The translations under genes and the position numbers were made by a program. The notes beneath the pieces are model-generated. The model was not told where the DNA came from, ran no database searches, and was given only the letters and a program-made list of their open reading frames with translations. A stretch of DNA of 64,000 nucleotides, taken from positions 1 through 64,000 of the IMG/VR virus record IMGVR_UViG_3300035698_010295; one strand, given 5' to 3'. Of this stretch, positions 9,115 to 37,857 are shown piece by piece (position 1 is the stretch's first letter; the number at the start of each line of letters is the position of its first letter). The DNA is from a virus.

Positions 9115-9186
9115 GGTGACTGCCGGAAGTCGAATCCGAATCCATGGAATCACAATCCATTGCTTTACCTATTAAGCTACAGTCAC
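9115..9186 (-). tRNA. tRNA-His (GTG)
   Basis: Cloverleaf: acceptor GTGACTG/CAGTCAC, D arm GCTT/AAGC, anticodon arm ATGGA-TTGTGAT-TCCAT, T loop TTCGACT, C73. CCA and G-1 are not encoded. Confidence 0.85.
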
Positions 9187-9188
9187 AA

Positions 9189-9261
9189 AGCCTCGGGCAG
9201 GATTCGAACCCACGAGGCATTCTATAGCGTATCAATAATGTGCGTCTACCGCCACCGAGGC
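9189..9261 (-). ncRNA. tRNA-like RNA or pseudo-tRNA
   Basis: Intact acceptor (GCCTCGG/CCGAGGC) and T arm (GTGGG-TTCGAAT-CCTGC); shortened D arm; 4-bp stem with a 15-nt loop in place of the anticodon arm. Confidence 0.65.
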
Positions 9262-24102: not shown

Positions 24103-24516
24103 TCATGATAAGTACCTCGCAAATCTTTTAGCTGCTGTTTTAGCCTGGCCAAGTGTTTTAATTGTTATAGTGCCGTGTTCACCAAACGGTGTTATGATCT
24201 TATTGCCTTTAAATGTAGATGAAAATAACTTATCACCAATTGAGAAACCAAAAATACCACGATGACTCCAACCAAACCAAGCTTGTAAAGATTCACTAAA
24301 TCCTATTTGAGCAACAGTCCCCAATATATCCGCAGATTGCAGTTGACGTAAGTCACGCTTTTTACATAGTGCTCTAGCCACATTAGATGAGCCAATATAA
24401 GACCCATCTAAATCTGAATAGCAACTAACCAATTCATAGCTACTCTTACCTGATTTAATAATCTCTCTACGGTAAAAGTAACCAGGGTAATGGCGTTCAA
24501 ATTTAATTTTTTTCAT
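24103..24516 (-). CDS. Hypothetical phage protein
   Basis: 137 aa; WFGWSHR motif; ATGA coupling. Confidence 0.65.
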   Translation of the reverse strand: MKKIKFERHYPGYFYRREIIKSGKSSYELVSCYSDLDGSYIGSSNVARALCKKRDLRQLQSADILGTVAQIGFSESLQAWFGWSHRGIFGFSIGDKLFSSTFKGNKIITPFGEHGTITIKTLGQAKTAAKRFARYLS

Positions 24517-26169: not shown

Positions 26170-26254
26170 TGCCCGAAGTGGGAGTCGAACCCACACGAGA
26201 GTTAATCTCAAGGGATCTTAAATCCCTTGTGTCTGCCAATTCCACCATTCGGGC
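26170..26254 (-). tRNA. tRNA-Leu (TAA)
   Basis: Acceptor GCCCGAA/TTCGGGC, D loop GGAATTGGCAGAC, anticodon arm AGGGA-TTTAAGA-TCCCT, long variable arm, T arm GTGGG-TTCGACT-CCCAC, A73. No encoded CCA. Confidence 0.92.
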
Positions 26255-26603
26255 TATTAGCTTCTTTTAATAATTCATCTAATTCTTTAAAAGTTGGATC
26301 AGTTTGTTTAAGATGATCTATATACTTAGTATTATCTTTAATAGCACACTGTATCTTATTTGTAATATTAACATCTTTAATAGTTTGTTGTATGATTCTA
26401 TCTTGAAGCTCACCAATTATATCACGTAATGCATGAGATAACATGGTATTAACTTCTTCTTCAATATGATCTGTGTTTCTGATACAACAAGCAGATGTAC
26501 TAGTTAAATGTTTACCATCAATACTAGCATTAACTATGAGTTTGACTGTAATATCATAATTAATCTCAAAACATAATTGGTGTTCTATTTCTATATTAAT
26601 CAC
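26208..26603 (-). CDS. Hypothetical protein (3' end overlaps tRNA-Leu)
   Basis: GTGA-coupled to the Ro60 stop. Confidence 0.55.
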   Translation of the reverse strand: MINIEIEHQLCFEINYDITVKLIVNASIDGKHLTSTSACCIRNTDHIEEEVNTMLSHALRDIIGELQDRIIQQTIKDVNITNKIQCAIKDNTKYIDHLKQTDPTFKELDELLKEANSPNGGIGRHKGFKIP

Positions 26604-28159
26604 TTTGAAAACTCCGATATTACATTGGGGGTGGCAGTATCAAAACCCACAACATCTAACATACCAGGATCGCTTGGATCAGCTATTGAAAACTCAGTGG
26701 GTTCCATAGACACTACAATTAATTTAGCATAGATACCTGTTTTCTTGCGATACTTTAATAAAGCTTGTACTGGGTGAATACCACCACACCAAGTTTCATT
26801 ATCGGTATAGATAACAAACGTGTCTACACTTATATTGTGTTCTAAAGCATAGATCATTGGTAATGAGCAGTCTGTCCTACCAAAAGGTAAACCTTTTACC
26901 GTTTTTACAACATCATCAAGTCTTTGTCTAGGAGATATATTTAATGTTGTTAATCTACTTGTAAAAGCTGTAATCACATAATTAGGCTCCACACTAGCAG
27001 TGATTAGAGCCATAGCTGCTGTGCCAATCCGTGGTGAAATACCAGTCATACCTGCAAGATCAGTGTGACTCATTGAACTTGATACATCTAAGGCTAACAT
27101 TGTACGTTTACACGTTGGTTTAACAGTGTCAAAAGAAAGATAGAAAGCTTGATCGAGTGCATCAATAATACTGGTGTTTGGACTCCAAGATAATGAGCCT
27201 TTAAAACCATGTCCCTTAGTGTATGTGTTTAGTGCCACAAGTATAGAGAGTGGATGTACTCTAGCCTTTTTGAGTTGATCTTTGTCTGTTAATCTTTGAA
27301 CTATTAGATTAGCAGACATTGGACCTATAGTACCGACAGATGTCATTTTGCCAAGGTTGCGAATCATAGCAGTCAGTGGCATTTTTTCTAGCAGAGCATC
27401 CCAGATATTTTTGTTGTTTAGCATCTCAGTAGGGATAGCTTCACGAGGTAAATTGTATGCCCTGATCATGTTATATAGGATTTCTGACTCACAAATTTGT
27501 GCATCTTCATACGCTCGTACTATGGCAGGTGCAGTTGGTGTAAGTTTGCCTTGTGTTATCCAGTGATACAAAGATTGATATGTTGAATTTGGTGGTATGG
27601 GATGACTCTTACGTAGAGCATCTCTATGTGACCAGCCATCTCTTTGTCGATATTTTATACATTGGTAAGCTAAAGCATCTACATCCTTGTCATTATACCA
27701 ATTAGCTACAGCAGTACGTAATAAGCGACCCCACCCGCGGAATTGTTGAACAAATTCCAAGAAATGAAATAGATGTGTACCTATTCTGGCAACCTTGGGC
27801 AACTGAGCCAAGGCGTAGTTCTTTTCATCACCAATACTAGCTGCCATAGCCAAAGCAAAAAGGCAAGGGTCATTTTTAGGTGCCCTGCCTTCAGTACTAA
27901 TCTCAGTGATTTTGTCAATCGTTCTTTTAGCATCCAAATCTAAGCAACGTAAAACACACTTAGCATTATCGCTGGTGAGCTTATGTTCTTTAACATAGTA
28001 AGTGCCACCCTCTGAGCCTAGGATTAAGAATCTCTCAAGACGGTACCAATCACTAATTGACCAGACAAAGCCTCCGGCATTGTTGCCAACCTGGTTAGAA
28101 CCAGGGATTGCCTCCGATTGTGGTGTTACTAGTGTGCTAAAATTCTGGTAAGTCTTCAT
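26600..28159 (-). CDS. rsr: Ro60 / TROVE-vWA RNA-binding protein (Rsr-like)
   Basis: NNAGGFV, RFLILGSEGGTYY, GWGR, KYRQRDGWSHRD, MPLTAMIRNLGKM, RVHP, MIDAS DVSSSM, TDCSLPM, TDNETW, DVVGFD; AGGAG SD. Confidence 0.96.
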   Translation of the reverse strand: MKTYQNFSTLVTPQSEAIPGSNQVGNNAGGFVWSISDWYRLERFLILGSEGGTYYVKEHKLTSDNAKCVLRCLDLDAKRTIDKITEISTEGRAPKNDPCLFALAMAASIGDEKNYALAQLPKVARIGTHLFHFLEFVQQFRGWGRLLRTAVANWYNDKDVDALAYQCIKYRQRDGWSHRDALRKSHPIPPNSTYQSLYHWITQGKLTPTAPAIVRAYEDAQICESEILYNMIRAYNLPREAIPTEMLNNKNIWDALLEKMPLTAMIRNLGKMTSVGTIGPMSANLIVQRLTDKDQLKKARVHPLSILVALNTYTKGHGFKGSLSWSPNTSIIDALDQAFYLSFDTVKPTCKRTMLALDVSSSMSHTDLAGMTGISPRIGTAAMALITASVEPNYVITAFTSRLTTLNISPRQRLDDVVKTVKGLPFGRTDCSLPMIYALEHNISVDTFVIYTDNETWCGGIHPVQALLKYRKKTGIYAKLIVVSMEPTEFSIADPSDPGMLDVVGFDTATPNVISEFSK

Positions 28160-28178: not shown

Positions 28179-28249
28179 TGGATAAGTTGTGTTAATAGAT
28201 ATGCGTGGGTACGAACCCACTATCTTGGTAACCTATTAACTTCGACCCA
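28179..28249 (-). ncRNA. Y RNA-like Y1 (Ro-binding stem plus a tRNA T-arm in the loop)
   Basis: TGGGTCGAA-GTTAATAGG-TTACC..GTGGG-TTCGTA-CCCAC..TCTATTAAC-ACAACTTATCCA. Confidence 0.8.
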
Positions 28250-28250
28250 A

Positions 28251-28374
28251 ACCAGAGGGCAGGACTCGAACCTGCGACCACGCTATTAAAATTAGATAAC
28301 CAACAATTGCCGACCCAAAAGGATAAGTTATTAACTGTCGAGTTTACGTGCTCTGCCAACTGAGCTACCTCTGG
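28251..28374 (-). ncRNA. tRNA-Y RNA chimera Y2 (tRNA body with a permuted Ro stem at the anticodon position)
   Basis: Acceptor CCAGAGG/CCTCTGG, D arm GCTC-AGTTGGCA-GAGC, T arm GCAGG-TTCGAGT-CCTGC; insert TCGACAGTT-AATAACTTATCC-TTTT-GGGTCGGC-AATTGTTGG-TTATCT. Confidence 0.85.
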
Positions 28375-28377
28375 TAA

Positions 28378-28502
28378 TGTGCGGGGTGGGAGTCGAACCC
28401 ACTATCTTCAGACCCTAGATAATCAATAACCTTCGACCCTATTGGGTTAGTTTATGGCTATCGAGTGTTTATTCTGACGCTCAACCGTTGAGCTTCCCGC
28501 AC
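28378..28502 (-). ncRNA. tRNA-Y RNA chimera Y3
   Basis: Acceptor GTGCGGG/CCCGCAC, D arm GCTC-AACGGTT-GAGC, anticodon stem TCAGA/TCTGA, T arm GTGGG-TTCGACT-CCCAC; insert TCGATAGCC-ATAAACTAACCC-AATA-GGGTCGAA-GGTTATTGA-TTATCT. Confidence 0.85.
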
Positions 28503-28506
28503 TACA

Positions 28507-28566
28507 GACGAGCAAGTTATTGTTCTGGGGATTCTTAAGCAGATAACCCAGAACATTCGGCTCGTC
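28507..28566 (-). ncRNA. Minimal Y RNA-like Y4
   Basis: GACGAGCCGAA-TGTTCTGGG-TTATCT...CCCAGAACA-ATAACTTGCTCGTC. Confidence 0.85.
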
Positions 28567-28579
28567 ACAATTTAATCAA

Positions 28580-28819
28580 TCATAGGTTTAATAGGGTATT
28601 GATTATAACTTCTTTGACTTTTTCATCAAGTGCTTCAACTTCTGCTAATAAGGCAGCAGGAAAGATAATTTCTTTATCACTACTGTAAGTGCTTGAGTTA
28701 AAAGTTTCTGTAGCTACAATTTTATCACCCAATTTAACAGAGTAAGTGCCCATCAACTTTTTTTTATTAGTGTCTTTTTCTTCATAACGCCATGATTTTG
28801 TTTCAATAGTTAGATTCAT
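28580..28819 (-). CDS. Hypothetical protein within the Y RNA locus
   Basis: 79-aa ORF, ATGA-coupled. Confidence 0.6.
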   Translation of the reverse strand: MNLTIETKSWRYEEKDTNKKKLMGTYSVKLGDKIVATETFNSSTYSSDKEIIFPAALLAEVEALDEKVKEVIINTLLNL

Positions 28820-29130: not shown

Positions 29131-29337
29131 TTGATTTGGTCAACATTTGTAACATCAATCATAATAGTTTCCTTTAATAATTATTCTTCGTCATCATCAC
29201 CAATTAACAATGAATCCAAACACACCACACAGTAATTTGGATCATCAAATTCATCTAACTCACAATCACAAATTTGACAATTTGCCATAACTATCTCCTT
29301 AATATTTAATAAAACAGTGACCATTGAAAACAAAATA

Positions 29338-29396
29338 AGGGCAAGTGATTTATTGTGGGAGAAATCACCTAAAGATAACCCACAACATTCGGCCCT
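29338..29396 (-). ncRNA. Minimal Y RNA-like Y5
   Basis: AGGGCCGAA-TGTTGTGGG-TTATCT...CCCACAATA-AATCACTTGCCCT, followed by a T-rich tract. Confidence 0.85.
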
Positions 29397-29399
29397 AAC

Positions 29400-29463
29400 G
29401 GCCCCTTGTGGTGTAGCTCCACTATAGCGTATATTTTCATATACATTGGTTCAACCAGGGGCC
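29400..29463 (-). ncRNA. Mini-cloverleaf (tRNA-like) RNA
   Basis: Closing stem GGCCCCT/AGGGGCC with three arms, including GTATAT-GAAA-ATATAC and GTGG-AGCTACA-CCAC. Confidence 0.5.
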
Positions 29464-29472
29464 TTAAAAAAG

Positions 29473-29550
29473 TAGGGCAAAATTATGTCAATTGGTAATT
29501 GAGATTAGCTTTAAAAACTGTTATGTGATAACCAACTAACTTCGGCCCTA
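29473..29550 (-). ncRNA. Y RNA-like Y6
   Basis: TAGGGCCGAA-GTTAGTTGG-TTATCA...CCAATTGAC-ATAATTTTGCCCTA, then CTTTTTT. Confidence 0.8.
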
Positions 29551-34778: not shown

Positions 34779-34973
34779 TTTGGCACCACAGTTTGCTCCA
34801 TAGCATCTTTGATGCCTTCAAAAAATTGATTTAATAAACCAATTTTGACACCTTTACAAAAGATGAAATTTTCATTTTTATCAAACCAAGCACACCTTGT
34901 AATGACAAACTTTTTTTGAGTTAAAAGGGAAATCAAAGCCATGACTACAATTTATCTTTACTCCATCAATCAT
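34775..34973 (-). pseudogene. Frameshifted paralog of 34593..34778
   Basis: MIDGVKINC...VCHYK, then one extra G (~34895), then CAWFDKNENFIFCKGVKIG, which matches CTKVCAWF...C...IG of the neighbour. Confidence 0.45.
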
Positions 34974-37857
34974 TACTTTTTTCATCCAACACCTTTATAA
35001 TATTACCTAAACTCAAACTTTGTAATTGTTTCTTTTGCTTCAAATTATCCAGTACGTATTTATCAGTAGGTAAGTGAAAAAGATCAATAATAGTGGCACC
35101 TCTATTATTATCCATACCAGGACGATGTATCCTGTCTTCAGATTGAAGCCTATACATGCCATTGAAATCATTACTATAGTATACAATAGATGGTGAGGCT
35201 GTAAAAGTAAGACCTTCAGATCCAGAAGCAGGGTGACCAATAACACACAACAAAGGAAAAGCATTACGAAATTCATTGTATTTTGGATGCGATAAATCCA
35301 TAGCTTGTAAGGCTTCATTAAGGTCATAACTATTTCCCTCTTTATCGGAAACAGTCCATCCTTGGCCGTCAATCCTTATTACGATCCAGCCAGCTTCTTT
35401 AACCATTTTACAAAGATGATCTATAGATGCTGTAAAACCGGCATAGAAAACGAGTCTAGCGACTTCCATATGTTCATCAAGTAAATTAAGTACAACATCA
35501 TTTTTAGGGCAGTCAATAAAGGTTGAGTCACGCTCATAAATAGATTGAATTCCAGTGCTACCACAATTTGGACATGGAATTTCTTCATATTCAAGAGGAT
35601 CAGTGTCTGGCTTAGGATGTTGTATTGTTTTGTTCCCGAGACAAAGACTACATGTTTCGGTTCCAGTTTTGACTTTAGTATATTGAAAACCATCACTTAA
35701 CTCTCGTAAGAGTGTTAGTGCTTTAATTGTGCTTGATGCTGTATTAGCGAGTGTTCTAGCAACATTTAAAATCGATTGTGTTGGTTTCACCTCAATTATG
35801 CGATACTGTTTATCCGGAAGATCAAAACAATCTTTTTTAAATTGGACTAAAACAAGTCCTTTAAGTCGTTTACTTAATTTTGAAACTTCATTTATTGATC
35901 TTGTAAACTCGTGATACCCTGGCTCAGTTAGATTGTGATTTATTGCATCTTTAAACTGACCACAAATTTTACATTTATTATCATCATCCCACCATGTAAT
36001 TAGCTTTGGATATGATCCACCATATTGTGCTTCACACATCTCTGTGAGACACAATCTATTACGAAATTTAGCTTCAGTTCCCTCTCTTAAAAAACCGGGC
36101 ATTGCTACTTCACAATTATGTGCGATAAATCCATTAGCAGAAAATTTATGTATACCTGGAACTTCTATATCATAGACATCTTCTATAGAATCTTGTTCAA
36201 CAGATTCTACTGTTGCTACTGGTGTGCTGGTCCAATTATGTCTATTTTTGATTCTCTTAATCAAGCGTTCTTTTTTCTTTGTTTGATTAAAATCAATAAT
36301 ATATTGAAATTTAATAGCTTCAGTATTTATTATTTGAATTTCATAACAAAAATCTGATGTATTAATTTTGCGTCCATCAATATATGATATACCTACATTT
36401 TTTTTAATTCTTATCTTACAATAAATACCTAAAGACTGCAATAATAATTGAATTTTATAGATTCTATCTTTATCTACTTGTGCTAATGTTATTCTTAAAG
36501 TATCTTTAGAAACACTACCATCAGCATCAAACATACCTCTTAAAAATCCAATAATAAAACTACTAGATGCAGTCATTATATTGTGGTCAATAATCTTTTT
36601 TGGTGTGATACCCCACTCACGAACAATATCATTAATTCTACCACCATGAATTATAAGGGCTTCACCACTAGAAGTAATATTATCTTGTTCAAGTATTTTA
36701 CATACTTCTGGTATCAAGCAAAAATCACCCTCAAAAAATTGAAGGCGACTATAGTAACCACTTTCTTTTTTAGTAACATTACCATCACCAAACAACAACC
36801 CTAAAATGTAACCTTCATTTTCTGATCCTGTTCCCTCCCAGTGATTGTATGATTCTGGCGTTGAAATTTTGATTTCATCACCAATTTCTAGCTCACATAA
36901 TTTTCTCCAAAGCTTTAAGCCATCATAATTAACAAGGAATTTTTGATCTTCTGTAGCTCTTACAGAATACCCTTCATTAGTGTTAATCTTATAAAGTTGC
37001 TTAGTTCCAGTTTTAAAGAAACCATTAGTCTTTACTTTGTGGTTATCAACTAATATATTAGTCTTTTGATGAATTAACTCTTTAATTTGTTTTAGACCTT
37101 GATCCGTAGTTATCCAAGTATCATCAGAAAAGCATTGCCAAAACCAATCAGTTGGGGCCTTTGGGGCAGGTGTTCCTGTTAAACAGATAACAAACCCTTT
37201 TTCTTTGTGTTCTAATCGTACACTATTAGCCAAGTGTGATGCTGCTTGTGAACGTTGTGAAGTGGAATTTTTAATTCGAGCACTTTCATCAAACACAACA
37301 CCTTGTGGGGCAACTCCATCCCATGACTCTAAATCAATACGAAACTTATCATAAGTTAAGAGTCGCGGTTTTACCCGCGACTCCCACTTCAACAATTCCA
37401 ACTCAACACTTTTAAGGGCTGATTTAGGAGCTATGTACCACCAGTCTTTTAGACCAGATTGCTCCATAACTTCAATAGCTGCAAGTGATTTTCCAACACC
37501 CATCTCACCAGCAAACATACAATAGTGTCTGGTTAGTATGTGCCTTACTGCTTCAACTTGATGTTTAAACAATGGGCGGTCAGTGACACAATTTAATAAA
37601 TCAGCATCATAAGGAGCATATGGATTTTCATTTTTAAGGTATTTTAATTGGAAAACATTTCTCGGTGTAAGAGGTGCACTCCAAATTTTACGTGGATTAT
37701 TATCAAAGCCATGCCATTTTGCACCTGACATATTTTTGATTTCATCCATCAACTTGCGATTAAAACGAAACTTAAAATATATTCTACCATCTTCAACAGC
37801 AACTTGAGCAGGTATTAAACGATTTTCTGCTCGTAACTTCATCATTTGATAATCCAT
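34966..37857 (-). CDS. SNF2-family helicase containing an intein
   Basis: EMGVGKS, FDESA, LTGTP, GSEGLT, QSEDRIHR. Confidence 0.92.
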   Translation of the reverse strand: MDYQMMKLRAENRLIPAQVAVEDGRIYFKFRFNRKLMDEIKNMSGAKWHGFDNNPRKIWSAPLTPRNVFQLKYLKNENPYAPYDADLLNCVTDRPLFKHQVEAVRHILTRHYCMFAGEMGVGKSLAAIEVMEQSGLKDWWYIAPKSALKSVELELLKWESRVKPRLLTYDKFRIDLESWDGVAPQGVVFDESARIKNSTSQRSQAASHLANSVRLEHKEKGFVICLTGTPAPKAPTDWFWQCFSDDTWITTDQGLKQIKELIHQKTNILVDNHKVKTNGFFKTGTKQLYKINTNEGYSVRATEDQKFLVNYDGLKLWRKLCELEIGDEIKISTPESYNHWEGTGSENEGYILGLLFGDGNVTKKESGYYSRLQFFEGDFCLIPEVCKILEQDNITSSGEALIIHGGRINDIVREWGITPKKIIDHNIMTASSSFIIGFLRGMFDADGSVSKDTLRITLAQVDKDRIYKIQLLLQSLGIYCKIRIKKNVGISYIDGRKINTSDFCYEIQIINTEAIKFQYIIDFNQTKKKERLIKRIKNRHNWTSTPVATVESVEQDSIEDVYDIEVPGIHKFSANGFIAHNCEVAMPGFLREGTEAKFRNRLCLTEMCEAQYGGSYPKLITWWDDDNKCKICGQFKDAINHNLTEPGYHEFTRSINEVSKLSKRLKGLVLVQFKKDCFDLPDKQYRIIEVKPTQSILNVARTLANTASSTIKALTLLRELSDGFQYTKVKTGTETCSLCLGNKTIQHPKPDTDPLEYEEIPCPNCGSTGIQSIYERDSTFIDCPKNDVVLNLLDEHMEVARLVFYAGFTASIDHLCKMVKEAGWIVIRIDGQGWTVSDKEGNSYDLNEALQAMDLSHPKYNEFRNAFPLLCVIGHPASGSEGLTFTASPSIVYYSNDFNGMYRLQSEDRIHRPGMDNNRGATIIDLFHLPTDKYVLDNLKQKKQLQSLSLGNIIKVLDEKSND
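36115..37134 (-). mobile_element. Intein with LAGLIDADG homing endonuclease (340 aa)
   Basis: Starts CFSDDTWITT, ends VYDIEV...NGFIAHN followed by Cys+1; contains LGLLFGDG and LRGMFDADG. Confidence 0.93.

What the first reader, a model, noticed from the sequence alone, without database searches (positions are those of the whole stretch)
28251..28502. Two tRNA bodies whose anticodon loop is replaced by a circularly permuted Ro-binding stem
Seen: both RNAs (124-125 nt) have normal tRNA ends, a 7-bp acceptor stem, a GCTC/GAGC D arm and a TTCGA T loop. At the anticodon position they carry the Y module in reversed strand order: the 3' strand first, a 4-nt loop (TTTT or AATA), then the GGGTCG 5' strand and TTATCT. 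Established: canonical YrlA has its free ends in the Ro stem and a loop-closed acceptor stem, so these are its circular permutation. I recall that permuted YrlA-type RNAs may have been noted occasionally. Pairing within each unit is complete, whereas cross-unit pairing (which would give a canonical YrlA) fails at the acceptor stem. Inference: they could be released from the polycistron by RNase P/Z, receive CCA and perhaps be aminoacylated. Having no anticodon, they would resist anticodon nucleases and could act as decoys or deliver Ro60 to tRNA-handling machinery. tRNA finders are likely to mis-call them as intron-containing or pseudo-tRNAs.
Basis: partly seen in the sequence, partly recalled or inferred. 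Interest (0 to 1): 0.85.

Follow-up and report, generated by a model that had tools for sequence, protein, structure and literature searches.

The report
tRNA-shaped Y RNAs beside phage Ro60
Just upstream of a salt-lake phage's Ro60 gene lie two RNA genes built like complete tRNAs that carry the Ro60-docking helix of Y RNAs where the anticodon loop should be. They are a rewired, widespread and apparently unpublished form of the known bacterial YrlA RNA.

Summary
On the minus strand, 28502..28378 (U1) and 28374..28251 (U2) are full tRNA cloverleaf bodies. In the anticodon arm each carries a hairpin with Y-RNA architecture, closed by a 4-nt loop where a normal Y RNA has its ends.

They sit in a tight array: mini Y RNA (E0), U1, U2, a YrlB-like Y RNA (E3), then the ribosome-binding site of a bona fide Ro60 gene. 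Two more mini Y RNAs lie 0.8-1.0 kb upstream.

The design is a large family. I found 153 units beside Ro60 genes in 99 of 245 viral, metagenomic and bacterial loci. Two thirds of those loci hold a single unit. Covariation is strong in the acceptor stem and the Ro helix.

Each half aligns collinearly with the opposite half of canonical YrlA, so this is a true circular permutation. The cross-unit "canonical YrlA" reading and the tRNA-intron reading both fail.

Two new details emerged. U2 keeps a small anticodon-like hairpin. Across the family, 72% of units pair N-1 with N73, often as a tRNA-His-like G-1:C73.

Expression, Ro60 binding, RNase P/CCA maturation and function are untested. This scan reported the same design on other genomes before. 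I found no published description.

The parts
28378..28502 (-). U1: tRNA-shaped Y RNA without a mini hairpin. Acceptor 28502-28496 / 28385-28379; discriminator A at 28378. D arm 28493-28479. Anticodon stem UCAGA/UCUGA 28477-28473 / 28412-28408. Y module 28464-28423, with lower helix ACCC-AAUA-GGGU at 28447-28436 and motif GUCGAAG. UUAUCU 28422-28417. T arm 28402-28386.
   Evidence: Rfam tRNA 48.3 bits with a 59-nt insertion. Fold -45.3 kcal/mol, z -4.6. R1 81.7 bits. Leave-out model R2 68.5 bits. Upper stem is 9 uninterrupted bp.
28251..28374 (-). U2: tRNA-shaped Y RNA with a mini hairpin. Acceptor 28374-28368 / 28258-28252; U73 at 28251 can pair with A-1 at 28375. D arm 28365-28350. Closing CG/CG 28348-28347 / 28282-28281. 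Y module 28341-28300: upper stem UCGACAGUU/AAUUGUUGG, internal loop AAUAAC/C, UU/GG, bulged C, AUCC-UUUU-GGGU. UUAU 28299-28296. Anticodon-like mini hairpin CUA-AUUUUAA-UAG 28295-28283. T arm 28275-28259.
   Evidence: Rfam tRNA 43.3 bits with a 64-nt insertion. R1 108.4 bits. R2 98.4 bits. Fold z -2.5. Mini hairpin found.
28507..28566 (-). E0: mini Y RNA with no tRNA part. Sequence: GACGAGC-C-GA-AU-GUUCUGGG-UUAUCU...CCCAGAAC-AAUAAC-UU-GCUCGUC. It ends 4 nt before U1.
   Evidence: Fold -23 kcal/mol, z -5.4. It stays an independent domain in the precursor fold.
28179..28250 (-). E3: YrlB-like Y RNA. A canonical open Ro helix (UGGGU-C-GA-AG-UUAAUAG / CUAUUAA-CACAAC-UU-AUCCA) encloses a T-arm-like hairpin GUGGGUUCGUACCCAC. 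It starts directly after U2's discriminator and ends about 10 nt before the Shine-Dalgarno sequence of Ro60.
   Evidence: Fold z -3.2. Rfam nematode stem-bulge (Y-type) RNA model 31 bits, E 6e-4, below the gathering score. Precursor fold.
26600..28159 (-). Ro60 (Rsr/TROVE) gene, 519 aa, co-oriented and immediately downstream of the RNA array.
   Evidence: Pfam TROVE E 1.9e-46 and vWA_Ro60 E 2.5e-62. Full-length matches to Xenopus Ro60 1yvp (E 3.6e-125) and Deinococcus Rsr 2nvo (E 7.6e-124).
29464..29550 (-). YA: mini Y RNA (UAGGGC-C-GA-AG-UUAGUUGG-UUAUCAC...CCAAUUGA-CAUAAU-UU-GCCCUA) followed by a U6 tract.
   Evidence: Sequence. Fold z -3.3. Rfam stem-bulge RNA 26.9 bits and Y_RNA 18.8 bits, both below gathering.
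29331..29399 (-). YB: mini Y RNA (AGGGC-C-GA-AU-GUUGUGGG-UUAUCU...CCCACAAU-AAAUCAC-UU-GCCCU) with a U-rich tail. It closely resembles metazoan Y RNAs.
   Evidence: Rfam Y_RNA RF00019 24.2 bits, E 0.01, gathering score 38. Fold z -2.8.
26170..26254 (-). Genuine tRNA-Leu(UAA), 345 nt downstream of Ro60 on the same strand.
   Evidence: ARAGORN and Rfam tRNA 56 bits.

Best explanation
U1 and U2 are Y RNAs of the YrlA class wired in native tRNA order.

Structure (shown or strongly supported):
- Each folds into an L-shaped tRNA-like body with an open 7-8 bp acceptor stem, a D arm and a T arm.
- The anticodon arm is prolonged into the Ro60-docking helix: upper stem, asymmetric internal loop, G-U/A-U pairs, a bulged C and a 4-bp lower stem.
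- A short loop closes that helix at the place where YrlA has its 5' and 3' ends.
- The genes form one array with the mini Y RNAs E0 and E3, directly upstream of Ro60 on the same strand.

Mechanism (inferred):
- The array is transcribed with Ro60 as one transcript.
- Host tRNA-processing enzymes cut it at the tRNA-like ends: RNase P at the 5' ends, and RNase Z or exonucleases plus the CCA-adding enzyme at the 3' ends. These cuts would also make the ends of E0 and E3.
- Phage Ro60 binds the bulged helix.
- The tRNA-like module presents an elbow and a free acceptor end to a tRNA-binding partner, as proposed for YrlA. This would redirect host RNA metabolism during infection.
For: 1. Anatomy is as described. 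The 406-nt precursor folds into four independent domains E0, U1, U2 and E3 (-131 kcal/mol, z -4.3).
2. The partner protein is a full-length Ro60.
3. Family size: 153 units meeting strict criteria lie in 99 of 245 Ro60 loci; 120 are upstream on the same strand, and 66 loci have a single unit.
4. Covariation in 68 distinct viral and metagenome units: 97.5% of cells paired against 75% in shuffles, score 0.68 against 0.215 (0 of 500 shuffles reach it). All 7 acceptor pairs and 4 of 6 Ro-helix pairs show double changes. Slid controls give 39-55%.
5. The result was repeated on 77 bacterial units: 96.8% paired, score 0.542 against 0.200.
6. The upper stem forms in cognate units: mean run 6.6 bp against 3.8 in swapped pairs, and 9 bp in both window units.
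7. The helix ends sharply. N-1:N73 is paired in 72% of units, while -2:74 and beyond sit at 29-39%. This places the RNA ends at tRNA positions.
8. Halves align collinearly with the opposite halves of canonical YrlA.
9. Precedent: M. smegmatis YrlA, which has a 7-bp acceptor stem, is cut by RNase P and receives CCA in vivo (PMC4201824).
Against: - There are no transcript, end-mapping or binding data. No RNA run holds this phage.
- Closing the Ro helix with a 4-nt loop after only 4 bp might hinder Ro60 binding. This has not been tested for any member.
- U2's 5' strand reads GUCGGC rather than the published GNCGAA motif.
- U1 has a G.A mismatch in the Ro helix, plus A8 and A15.A48, so it may be a weaker mimic.
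- CCA is encoded in only 15 of 146 units, and the phage record (83% complete) has no CCA-adding enzyme or RtcB. Maturation would therefore depend on an unknown host.
- The effector bound by the tRNA-like part is unknown, even for YrlA.
Confidence: 0.75

Rival explanations
1. Punctuation only. The tRNA-like bodies serve merely as RNase P/Z cutting signals that release the flanking mini Y RNAs and the Ro60 mRNA, and have no function of their own.
For: The packing is extremely tight: 4 nt between E0 and U1, 3 nt between U1 and U2, and 0-1 nt between U2 and E3. In relative L002 a genuine tRNA-Pro sits between Y RNAs in the same position.
Against: The Y module inside the tRNA body is itself conserved and covaries. 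A plain tRNA would do the punctuation job. Of 98 relatives' loci that carry such units, 66 hold a single one. I did not check whether those single units lack flanking mini Y RNAs.
Confidence: 0.08
2. Cross-unit canonical YrlA. The true RNA runs from U1's GGGUCG strand through T arm 1, the spacer and D arm 2 to U2's ACUUAUCC strand, and its ends are made by cuts in the two small loops.
For: The Rfam YrlA model aligns to exactly this stretch (28429..28325) at 27.8 bits, E 0.002. The two strands could pair, because U1 and U2 are paralogues.
Against: The score is far below the gathering score of 69. The stretch folds no better than shuffles, z +0.22. The would-be acceptor region CCCGCACAUUACCAGAGG cannot form a hairpin. 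Both 7-bp acceptor stems, U1's 3' strand and U2's 5' strand would be left without partners. Most loci have one unit only.
Confidence: 0.03
3. Intron-containing tRNA genes. The 53-64-nt insert is spliced out to give working tRNAs.
For: With introns allowed, ARAGORN calls U2 as a tRNA with a 53-nt intron, and at a lowered threshold it also calls U1.
Against: The predicted products are a 'tRNA-Stop(tta)' with a poor anticodon stem and an intron at position 31/32 rather than 37/38. The insert is too small for a group I intron, and bacteria lack the archaeal/eukaryal tRNA splicing endonuclease (established knowledge). The insert is conserved as a Ro-binding helix next to Ro60 in every member. Acceptor stems carry no conserved amino-acid identity.
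Confidence: 0.03
4. tRNA decoy or sensor in phage-host conflict. The units mimic particular tRNAs, for example with a Lys-like UUU loop in U2. They would soak up or report tRNA-directed defence nucleases, with Ro60 as the reader or protector.
For: About 37% of units keep a mini hairpin with U33 and a purine at position 37 and varied 'anticodons' (UUU 8, GUU 6, UGG 6...). A Tad6 anti-Thoeris homologue lies 2 kb away. A Ro60-like protein of phage Bas63 is reported to counter the Ppl defence system (PMC11482910).
Against: The mini hairpin has only 3-4 bp and is displaced from the normal anticodon position. U1 and most units lack it. No nuclease target is known. The neighbourhood argument is weak.
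Confidence: 0.1

Closest known systems
YrlA (Y RNA-like A; Rfam RF02553; Chen et al. 2014, PMC4201824; structure in Wang et al. 2018, bioRxiv 10.1101/312249)
   Same: Encoded beside Ro60. Bulged Ro-binding helix with the G-N-C-G-A-A type 5' strand and a UUAUC-type motif. tRNA-like domain with the same D arm (UAGCUCA..GG..GAGC) and T arm (GCGGGUUCGAnUCCCGC). The anticodon stem is prolonged into the Ro helix. The sequences are collinear once one of them is rotated.
   Different: The chain break is at the other end. YrlA runs Ro 5' strand, T arm, loop-closed acceptor, D arm, Ro 3' strand. Here the order is that of a tRNA, with an open 7-8 bp acceptor stem and a loop-closed Ro helix. The Rfam YrlA model does not detect the units; it gives only 27.8 bits, and across two units.
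[quoted passage not shown]
   Same: A Y RNA whose acceptor-like stem is 7 bp, is opened by RNase P and receives CCA. It therefore has a tRNA-like free acceptor end.
   Different: That RNA becomes two pieces with an open Ro helix as well. Here one continuous chain would have the open acceptor end and a closed Ro helix, encoded that way in the gene.
YrlB and other mini Y RNAs; metazoan Y RNAs and nematode stem-bulge RNAs (Rfam RF00019, RF01656)
   Same: E0, E3, YA and YB of this array have the classic open Ro helix on both strands, a GUGGGUUAU-type upper stem and U-rich tails. E3 holds a T arm, as M. smegmatis YrlB does.
   Different: They lack the full tRNA body. They are the companions of U1 and U2, not the same kind of RNA.
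Circularly permuted tRNA genes of red algae and some archaea (PMC3978253; discussed in 10.1101/312249)
   Same: The same fold is encoded in rotated order. This shows that both gene orders can give a tRNA-shaped RNA.
   Different: Those are precursors that are circularised and re-cut to give normal tRNAs. Nothing suggests such processing here.
tmRNA and plant-virus tRNA-like structures (TYMV)
   Same: tRNA mimics with a free CCA-type acceptor end joined to a non-tRNA functional module.
   Different: They are aminoacylated and work with the ribosome or replicase. They have no Ro60 link and are not homologous.

Membership tests
YrlA (Rfam RF02553) | Gene lies next to a Ro60/rsr gene | tested here: met
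   The array ends 20 nt before the Ro60 start codon on the same strand.
YrlA (Rfam RF02553) | Bulged Ro60-binding helix with the conserved 5'-strand motif GNCGAAN0-1G | tested here: met
   U1 has GUCGAAG with a bulged C. U2 has the common family variant GUCGGC (GG/UU in 25 of 140 parsed units). The helix covaries.
YrlA (Rfam RF02553) | tRNA-like domain with D and T arms and tertiary-contact nucleotides | tested here: met
   The Rfam tRNA model scores 48.3 and 43.3 bits. U2 has U8, A14, G18G19, G15:C48 and UUCGA. U1 lacks U8 and the Levitt pair.
YrlA (Rfam RF02553) | Order T arm, loop-closed acceptor stem, D arm, with the RNA ends in the Ro helix | tested here: not met
   The order is acceptor 5', D, Ro 3' strand, loop, Ro 5' strand, T, acceptor 3'.
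YrlA (Rfam RF02553) | Reaches the family's curated score | tested here: not met
   The best match is 27.8 bits against a gathering score of 69, and it spans two units.
YrlA (Rfam RF02553) | Bound by Ro60 in cells | not testable with these tools
   No RNA or binding data exist for this uncultured phage.
Functional tRNA (Rfam RF00005) | Cloverleaf with a 7-bp acceptor stem, D arm and T arm | tested here: met
Functional tRNA (Rfam RF00005) | 5-bp anticodon stem with a 7-nt loop at the normal place | tested here: not met
   There are 59- and 64-nt insertions. U2's 7-nt loop sits on a 3-bp side hairpin. ARAGORN in default mode calls neither unit.
Intron-containing tRNA | Intron at position 37/38 (or a group I intron core) whose removal leaves a normal anticodon arm | tested here: not met
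   ARAGORN -i places a 53-nt 'intron' at 31/32 and predicts tRNA-Stop(tta). The insert is far too short for a group I intron (established knowledge).
tRNA-topology Y RNA family defined here (models R1 and R2) | Paired 7-bp acceptor stem, D arm, loop-closed bulged Ro helix and T arm in tRNA order, next to Ro60 | tested here: met
   R1 scores 108.4 and 81.7 bits. The leave-out model R2 scores 98.4 and 68.5 bits, against at most 48 bits for ordinary tRNAs.

The most novel reading that the evidence does not exclude
These tRNA-shaped Y RNAs are matured like tRNAs and carry a free CCA end while docked on Ro60. That end may even be aminoacylated. A phage (or bacterial) Ro60 particle would then plug directly into tRNA-handling machinery such as synthetases, EF-Tu, the CCA enzyme or tRNA-directed defence nucleases, acting as a decoy, sensor or delivery vehicle. 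The tRNA-His-like G-1:C73 acceptor end in 38% of the family makes histidylation of those members a concrete possibility. The window's own two units lack that signature. A second, evolutionary reading is that tandem tRNA-order units like U1-U2 are the 'dimeric tRNA' ancestor from which canonical YrlA arose by permutation through duplication.
Probability: 0.15. Interest if true: 0.85.

Novelty: new variant of a known kind. Interest (0 to 1): 0.6.

Why it matters
- Y RNAs are the obligatory partners of Ro60, and only the YrlA wiring is in Rfam and in the papers I could read. A second, equally common wiring would fill gaps left by the 2014 survey. That survey found few YrlA RNAs in delta-proteobacteria and cyanobacteria and discarded hits overlapping tandem tRNA genes. 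Here, Myxococcota, Chloroflexota, Gemmatimonadota and Armatimonadota loci carry the tRNA-order form.
- The finding gives sequence-level support to the idea that Y RNAs descend from tRNA dimers.
- The free acceptor end changes what these RNAs can do. RNase P/Z processing, CCA addition and possibly charging become testable.
- For annotation, the units are either missed or mis-called as tRNAs with introns, and a covariance model now exists to find them.
- For phage biology, six Ro-binding RNAs and a Ro60 gene in one 77-kb phage point to a substantial investment in reshaping host RNA metabolism.

Tried and rejected
- RNA evidence: no RNA holder is listed for this stretch. Laying three salt-lake DNA runs gave only contigs. 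The apparent 'joints' that skip the insert are other organisms' ordinary tRNAs sharing U2's D and T arms, with 17-19 other letters in between.
- Close cultured relatives: no phage record with similar DNA was found. Cultured Ro60 phages checked (Cashline, Bigswole, Sparky) have canonical YrlA. Phosso and Atu_ph07 gave no hit within 2.5 kb.
- Model R1 gives a 56-bit cross-hit on tandem canonical YrlAs in Cashline, with an unpaired acceptor stem. I therefore required acceptor pairing for membership.
- A duplex-energy swap test for the upper stem was weak (z -0.8). My parser had mis-placed some stems, U1's among them. I replaced it with an anchored-run test.
- My first ad hoc filter for counting units was too strict and was replaced by counts based on alignment columns.
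- MAFFT and RNAalifold did not recover the upper stem because of register shifts.
- Promoter and terminator scans were no better than shuffles. One candidate promoter lies at 28629..28602.
- RtcB and a CCA-adding enzyme are absent from the phage record, which is 83% complete.
- The reviews PMC10870794 and PMC6047535 and the supplements of PMC4201824 are not held, so an earlier mention in them cannot be excluded.

Full report
**What is there.** The window is part of a 77.7-kb uncultured phage record, 83% complete by CheckV. Its DNA is held by salt-lake metagenome runs. It encodes a family A DNA polymerase, ribonucleotide reductase, ParB, an intein-bearing SNF2 helicase and a Tad6 homologue.

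All features of interest are on the minus strand. In 5' to 3' order they are:
- E0 (28566..28507), a 60-nt hairpin with textbook Y-RNA anatomy: lower stem, bulged C, G-U and A-U pairs, asymmetric internal loop, upper stem, UUAUCU.
- A 4-nt spacer.
- U1 (28502..28378).
- A 3-nt spacer.
- U2 (28374..28251).
- E3 (28250..28179), an open Ro helix enclosing a T-arm-like hairpin, like YrlB of M. smegmatis.
- The Shine-Dalgarno sequence and the ATG of a 519-aa protein (28159..26600).

That protein is an unambiguous Ro60. It matches Pfam TROVE and vWA_Ro60, and it aligns over its full length to Xenopus Ro60 and Deinococcus Rsr with E about 1e-124. Two more mini Y RNAs, YA and YB, lie 0.8-1.0 kb upstream. 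YB resembles metazoan Y RNAs closely enough to score 24 bits with Rfam Y_RNA, below the gathering score of 38.

**Checking the observation.** U1 and U2 each have a perfect 7-bp acceptor stem, a GCUC/GAGC D arm and a UUCGA T loop.
- The Rfam tRNA model scores them at 48.3 and 43.3 bits (gathering score 29), with 59- and 64-nt insertions at the anticodon loop.
- The insert reads: Ro 3' strand, a 4-nt loop (AAUA or UUUU), then Ro 5' strand (GGGUCG...), then UUAUCU.
- RNAfold gives these within-unit folds (z -4.6 and -2.5).
- The 406-nt precursor folds into four separate domains (z -4.3).
- ARAGORN calls nothing by default. With introns allowed it calls U2 'tRNA-Stop(tta)' with a 53-nt intron at position 31/32. 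It calls U1 only at a lowered threshold.

**A family, not a curiosity.** I fetched 245 loci around relatives of this Ro60: 85 viral, 80 metagenomic and 80 from bacterial or archaeal genomes.
- A simple descriptor scan already showed the same design in many of them.
- I built a covariance model (R1) from 24 units. It finds the window's units at 108 and 82 bits, and ordinary tRNAs at 48 bits or less.
- I required length of at least 98 nt, at least 6 of 7 acceptor pairs, at least 5 of 6 Ro-helix pairs and at least 4 of 5 T-stem pairs. On these criteria there are 153 units in 99 loci.
- 120 units lie upstream of Ro60 on the same strand, 28 lie downstream and 2 are on the opposite strand. 66 loci carry a single unit.
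- Carriers include Myxococcota, among them the isolates Polyangium jinanense SDU13 and Polyangium sp. 15x6. They also include Chloroflexota, Gemmatimonadota, Armatimonadota and others.
- A model built without the window's own sequences (R2) still scores U2 at 98.4 bits and U1 at 68.5 bits.

**Structure is under selection.**
- On 68 distinct viral and metagenome units, 97.5% of cells are paired against 75% after shuffling. The covariation score is 0.68 against 0.215 (0 of 500 shuffles). All seven acceptor pairs and four of six Ro-helix pairs show compensatory double changes. Slid controls give 39-55%.
- An independent set of 77 bacterial units gives 96.8% paired and 0.542 against 0.200.
- The upper stem, anchored at the GG of GGUUAUC, forms an uninterrupted run averaging 6.6 bp in cognate units. 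The average is 3.8 bp when the two halves are swapped between units. Both window units have 9 bp.
- The loop that closes the Ro helix varies from 3 to 54 nt, most often 4-8 nt, and has no conserved sequence. It is therefore a connector.

**It is a circular permutation of YrlA.** Canonical YrlA runs Ro 5' strand, T arm, loop-closed acceptor stem, D arm, Ro 3' strand. I found canonical examples in relatives: Mycobacterium phage Sparky (L003), Bigswole (L253) and Gordonia phage Cashline (L250).
- The 3' half of the tRNA-order RNAs aligns end to end with the 5' half of YrlA, at 70% mean column identity: GGGCCGAAG...GGUUAUC...AAUGCAAAUGG...GGUC, then the T arm.
- Their 5' half aligns with the 3' half of YrlA at 62%: D arm, AAAAC, upper stem, CAC-AAC-UU-GCCC.
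- The two forms therefore share ancestry and the same connectivity of helices. Only the position of the chain break differs.

**Rivals.**
- *Cross-unit reading.* This joins U1's 5' strand to U2's 3' strand. Rfam's YrlA model picks out this stretch, but at only 27.8 bits against a gathering score of 69. The stretch folds no better than shuffles (z +0.22). Its would-be acceptor region cannot pair, and single-unit loci are the rule.
- *Intron reading.* It fails on intron position, intron size, the predicted product and the conservation of the insert.
- *Pure punctuation.* The tight packing and relative L002, where a true tRNA-Pro sits among Y RNAs, give it some plausibility. It does not explain a conserved, covarying Ro helix inside the tRNA body.

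**New details.**
1. There are two subtypes. About 37% of units, including U2, have a mini hairpin between UUAUC and the variable loop, with 3-5 bp and a 7-nt loop. That loop has U at position 33 and a purine at position 37, and the 'anticodons' are diverse. U2's is CUA-AUUUUAA-UAG. The other units, like U1, have a 5-bp anticodon stem leading straight into the Y module. So 'no anticodon' is not generally true.
2. The base before position 1 pairs with N73 in 72% of units. Pairs further out (-2:74 to -6:78) sit at 29-39%. G-1:C73, the hallmark of bacterial tRNA-His, occurs in 55 of 145 units, whereas it is not among the six commonest -1:73 combinations in 89 ordinary tRNAs of the same loci. The sharp end of the helix argues that the RNA ends are at tRNA positions. 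The His-like end suggests a testable charging hypothesis for those members. U2 has A-1:U73 and U1 has no eighth pair.
3. CCA is encoded in only 15 of 146 units, and the phage record has no CCA-adding enzyme or RtcB.
4. U1 is the more degenerate copy. It has A8, A15.A48 and a G.A mismatch in the Ro helix.

**Mechanism.**
- Shown or strongly supported: the genes, their folds, their family membership, their linkage to Ro60 and their homology to YrlA.
- Inferred: co-transcription with Ro60; release by RNase P and 3' processing, with the precedent of M. smegmatis YrlA; binding of Ro60 to the loop-closed helix; use of the tRNA-like elbow and free acceptor end to engage a tRNA-binding factor.
- Context: Ro60-like genes in phages have been linked to recruiting host PNPase (Thermus phage phiLo, PMC12135203) and to countering a defence system (Bas63, PMC11482910). 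Nothing ties this phage to either.

**Evolution.** Sim and Wolin's model, as cited in Wang et al. [quoted passage not shown] Two observations fit 'permutation by duplication':
- A tandem pair of tRNA-order Y RNAs such as U1-U2 contains a YrlA-order arrangement at its junction.
- Conversely, tandem YrlAs contain a tRNA-order arrangement at theirs. R1 cross-hits Cashline at 56 bits with an unpaired acceptor stem.

Which form came first is open.

**Novelty.** Rfam 15 has no family for this design. The full-text searches I could run found no description. Two key reviews and the 2014 supplements were not available. Earlier agents of this scan reported the same design on other genomes and likewise found no publication. 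I re-derived the family independently here. I class it as a new variant of a known kind.

Noticed in passing
window 29400-29463 (-): Between mini Y RNAs YA and YB lies a 64-nt element that folds as a small cloverleaf: a 7-bp closing stem GGCCCCU/AGGGGCC and three hairpins, the last with a 7-nt loop. The fold is -24.7 kcal/mol, z -3.2. Neither ARAGORN nor Rfam calls it.
   Followed up: partly
window 29331-29399 and 29464-29550 (-): The phage's mini Y RNAs keep both strands of the Ro helix, a GUGGGUUAU upper stem and a 3' U tract, like animal Y RNAs. Sub-threshold Rfam matches are Y_RNA at 24.2 bits and nematode stem-bulge RNA at 26.9 bits.
   Followed up: partly
window 28179-28250 (-) and L086:1440-1505: A Ro-binding helix sits right at the ribosome-binding site of the Ro60 mRNA. 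E3 ends about 10 nt before the Shine-Dalgarno sequence here. In the closest relative, L086, a loop-closed Ro helix (GCUU...GGAGC-C-GG) overlaps the GGGAG just before the ATG. This hints at translational autoregulation by Ro60.
   Followed up: no
window 24103-24516 (-): A 137-aa protein matches Pfam Tad6 (Thoeris type I inhibitor; E 4e-27), 2 kb downstream of Ro60 on the same strand. This may be an anti-defence neighbourhood.
   Followed up: no
window 9189-9261 (-): A weak tRNA-like match (Rfam tRNA 26.7 bits, just under the gathering score of 29; R2 22.4 bits) lies directly upstream of tRNA-His (9115-9186). ARAGORN does not call it.
   Followed up: partly
window 34966-37857 (-): An SNF2-type helicase gene is interrupted by an intein with a LAGLIDADG homing endonuclease domain (Pfam Intein_splicing, LAGLIDADG_3).
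   Followed up: no
L002:1403-1460: A relative's contig has a sub-threshold match to the type-P1 twister ribozyme (45.6 bits, gathering score 67.2), about 1 kb upstream of its Y-RNA array.
   Followed up: no
L001:2224-2392: In one relative the loop that closes the Ro helix of the tRNA-shaped Y RNA is about 50 nt long rather than 4. The family range is 3-54 nt. Such long loops may hold an extra element.
   Followed up: no
L253:2110-2449 (Mycobacterium phage Bigswole): Two annotated 'hypothetical protein' genes (236 and 237) lie over the canonical YrlA and YrlB-like RNAs upstream of the Ro-like gene. They are probably mis-called ORFs.
   Followed up: no
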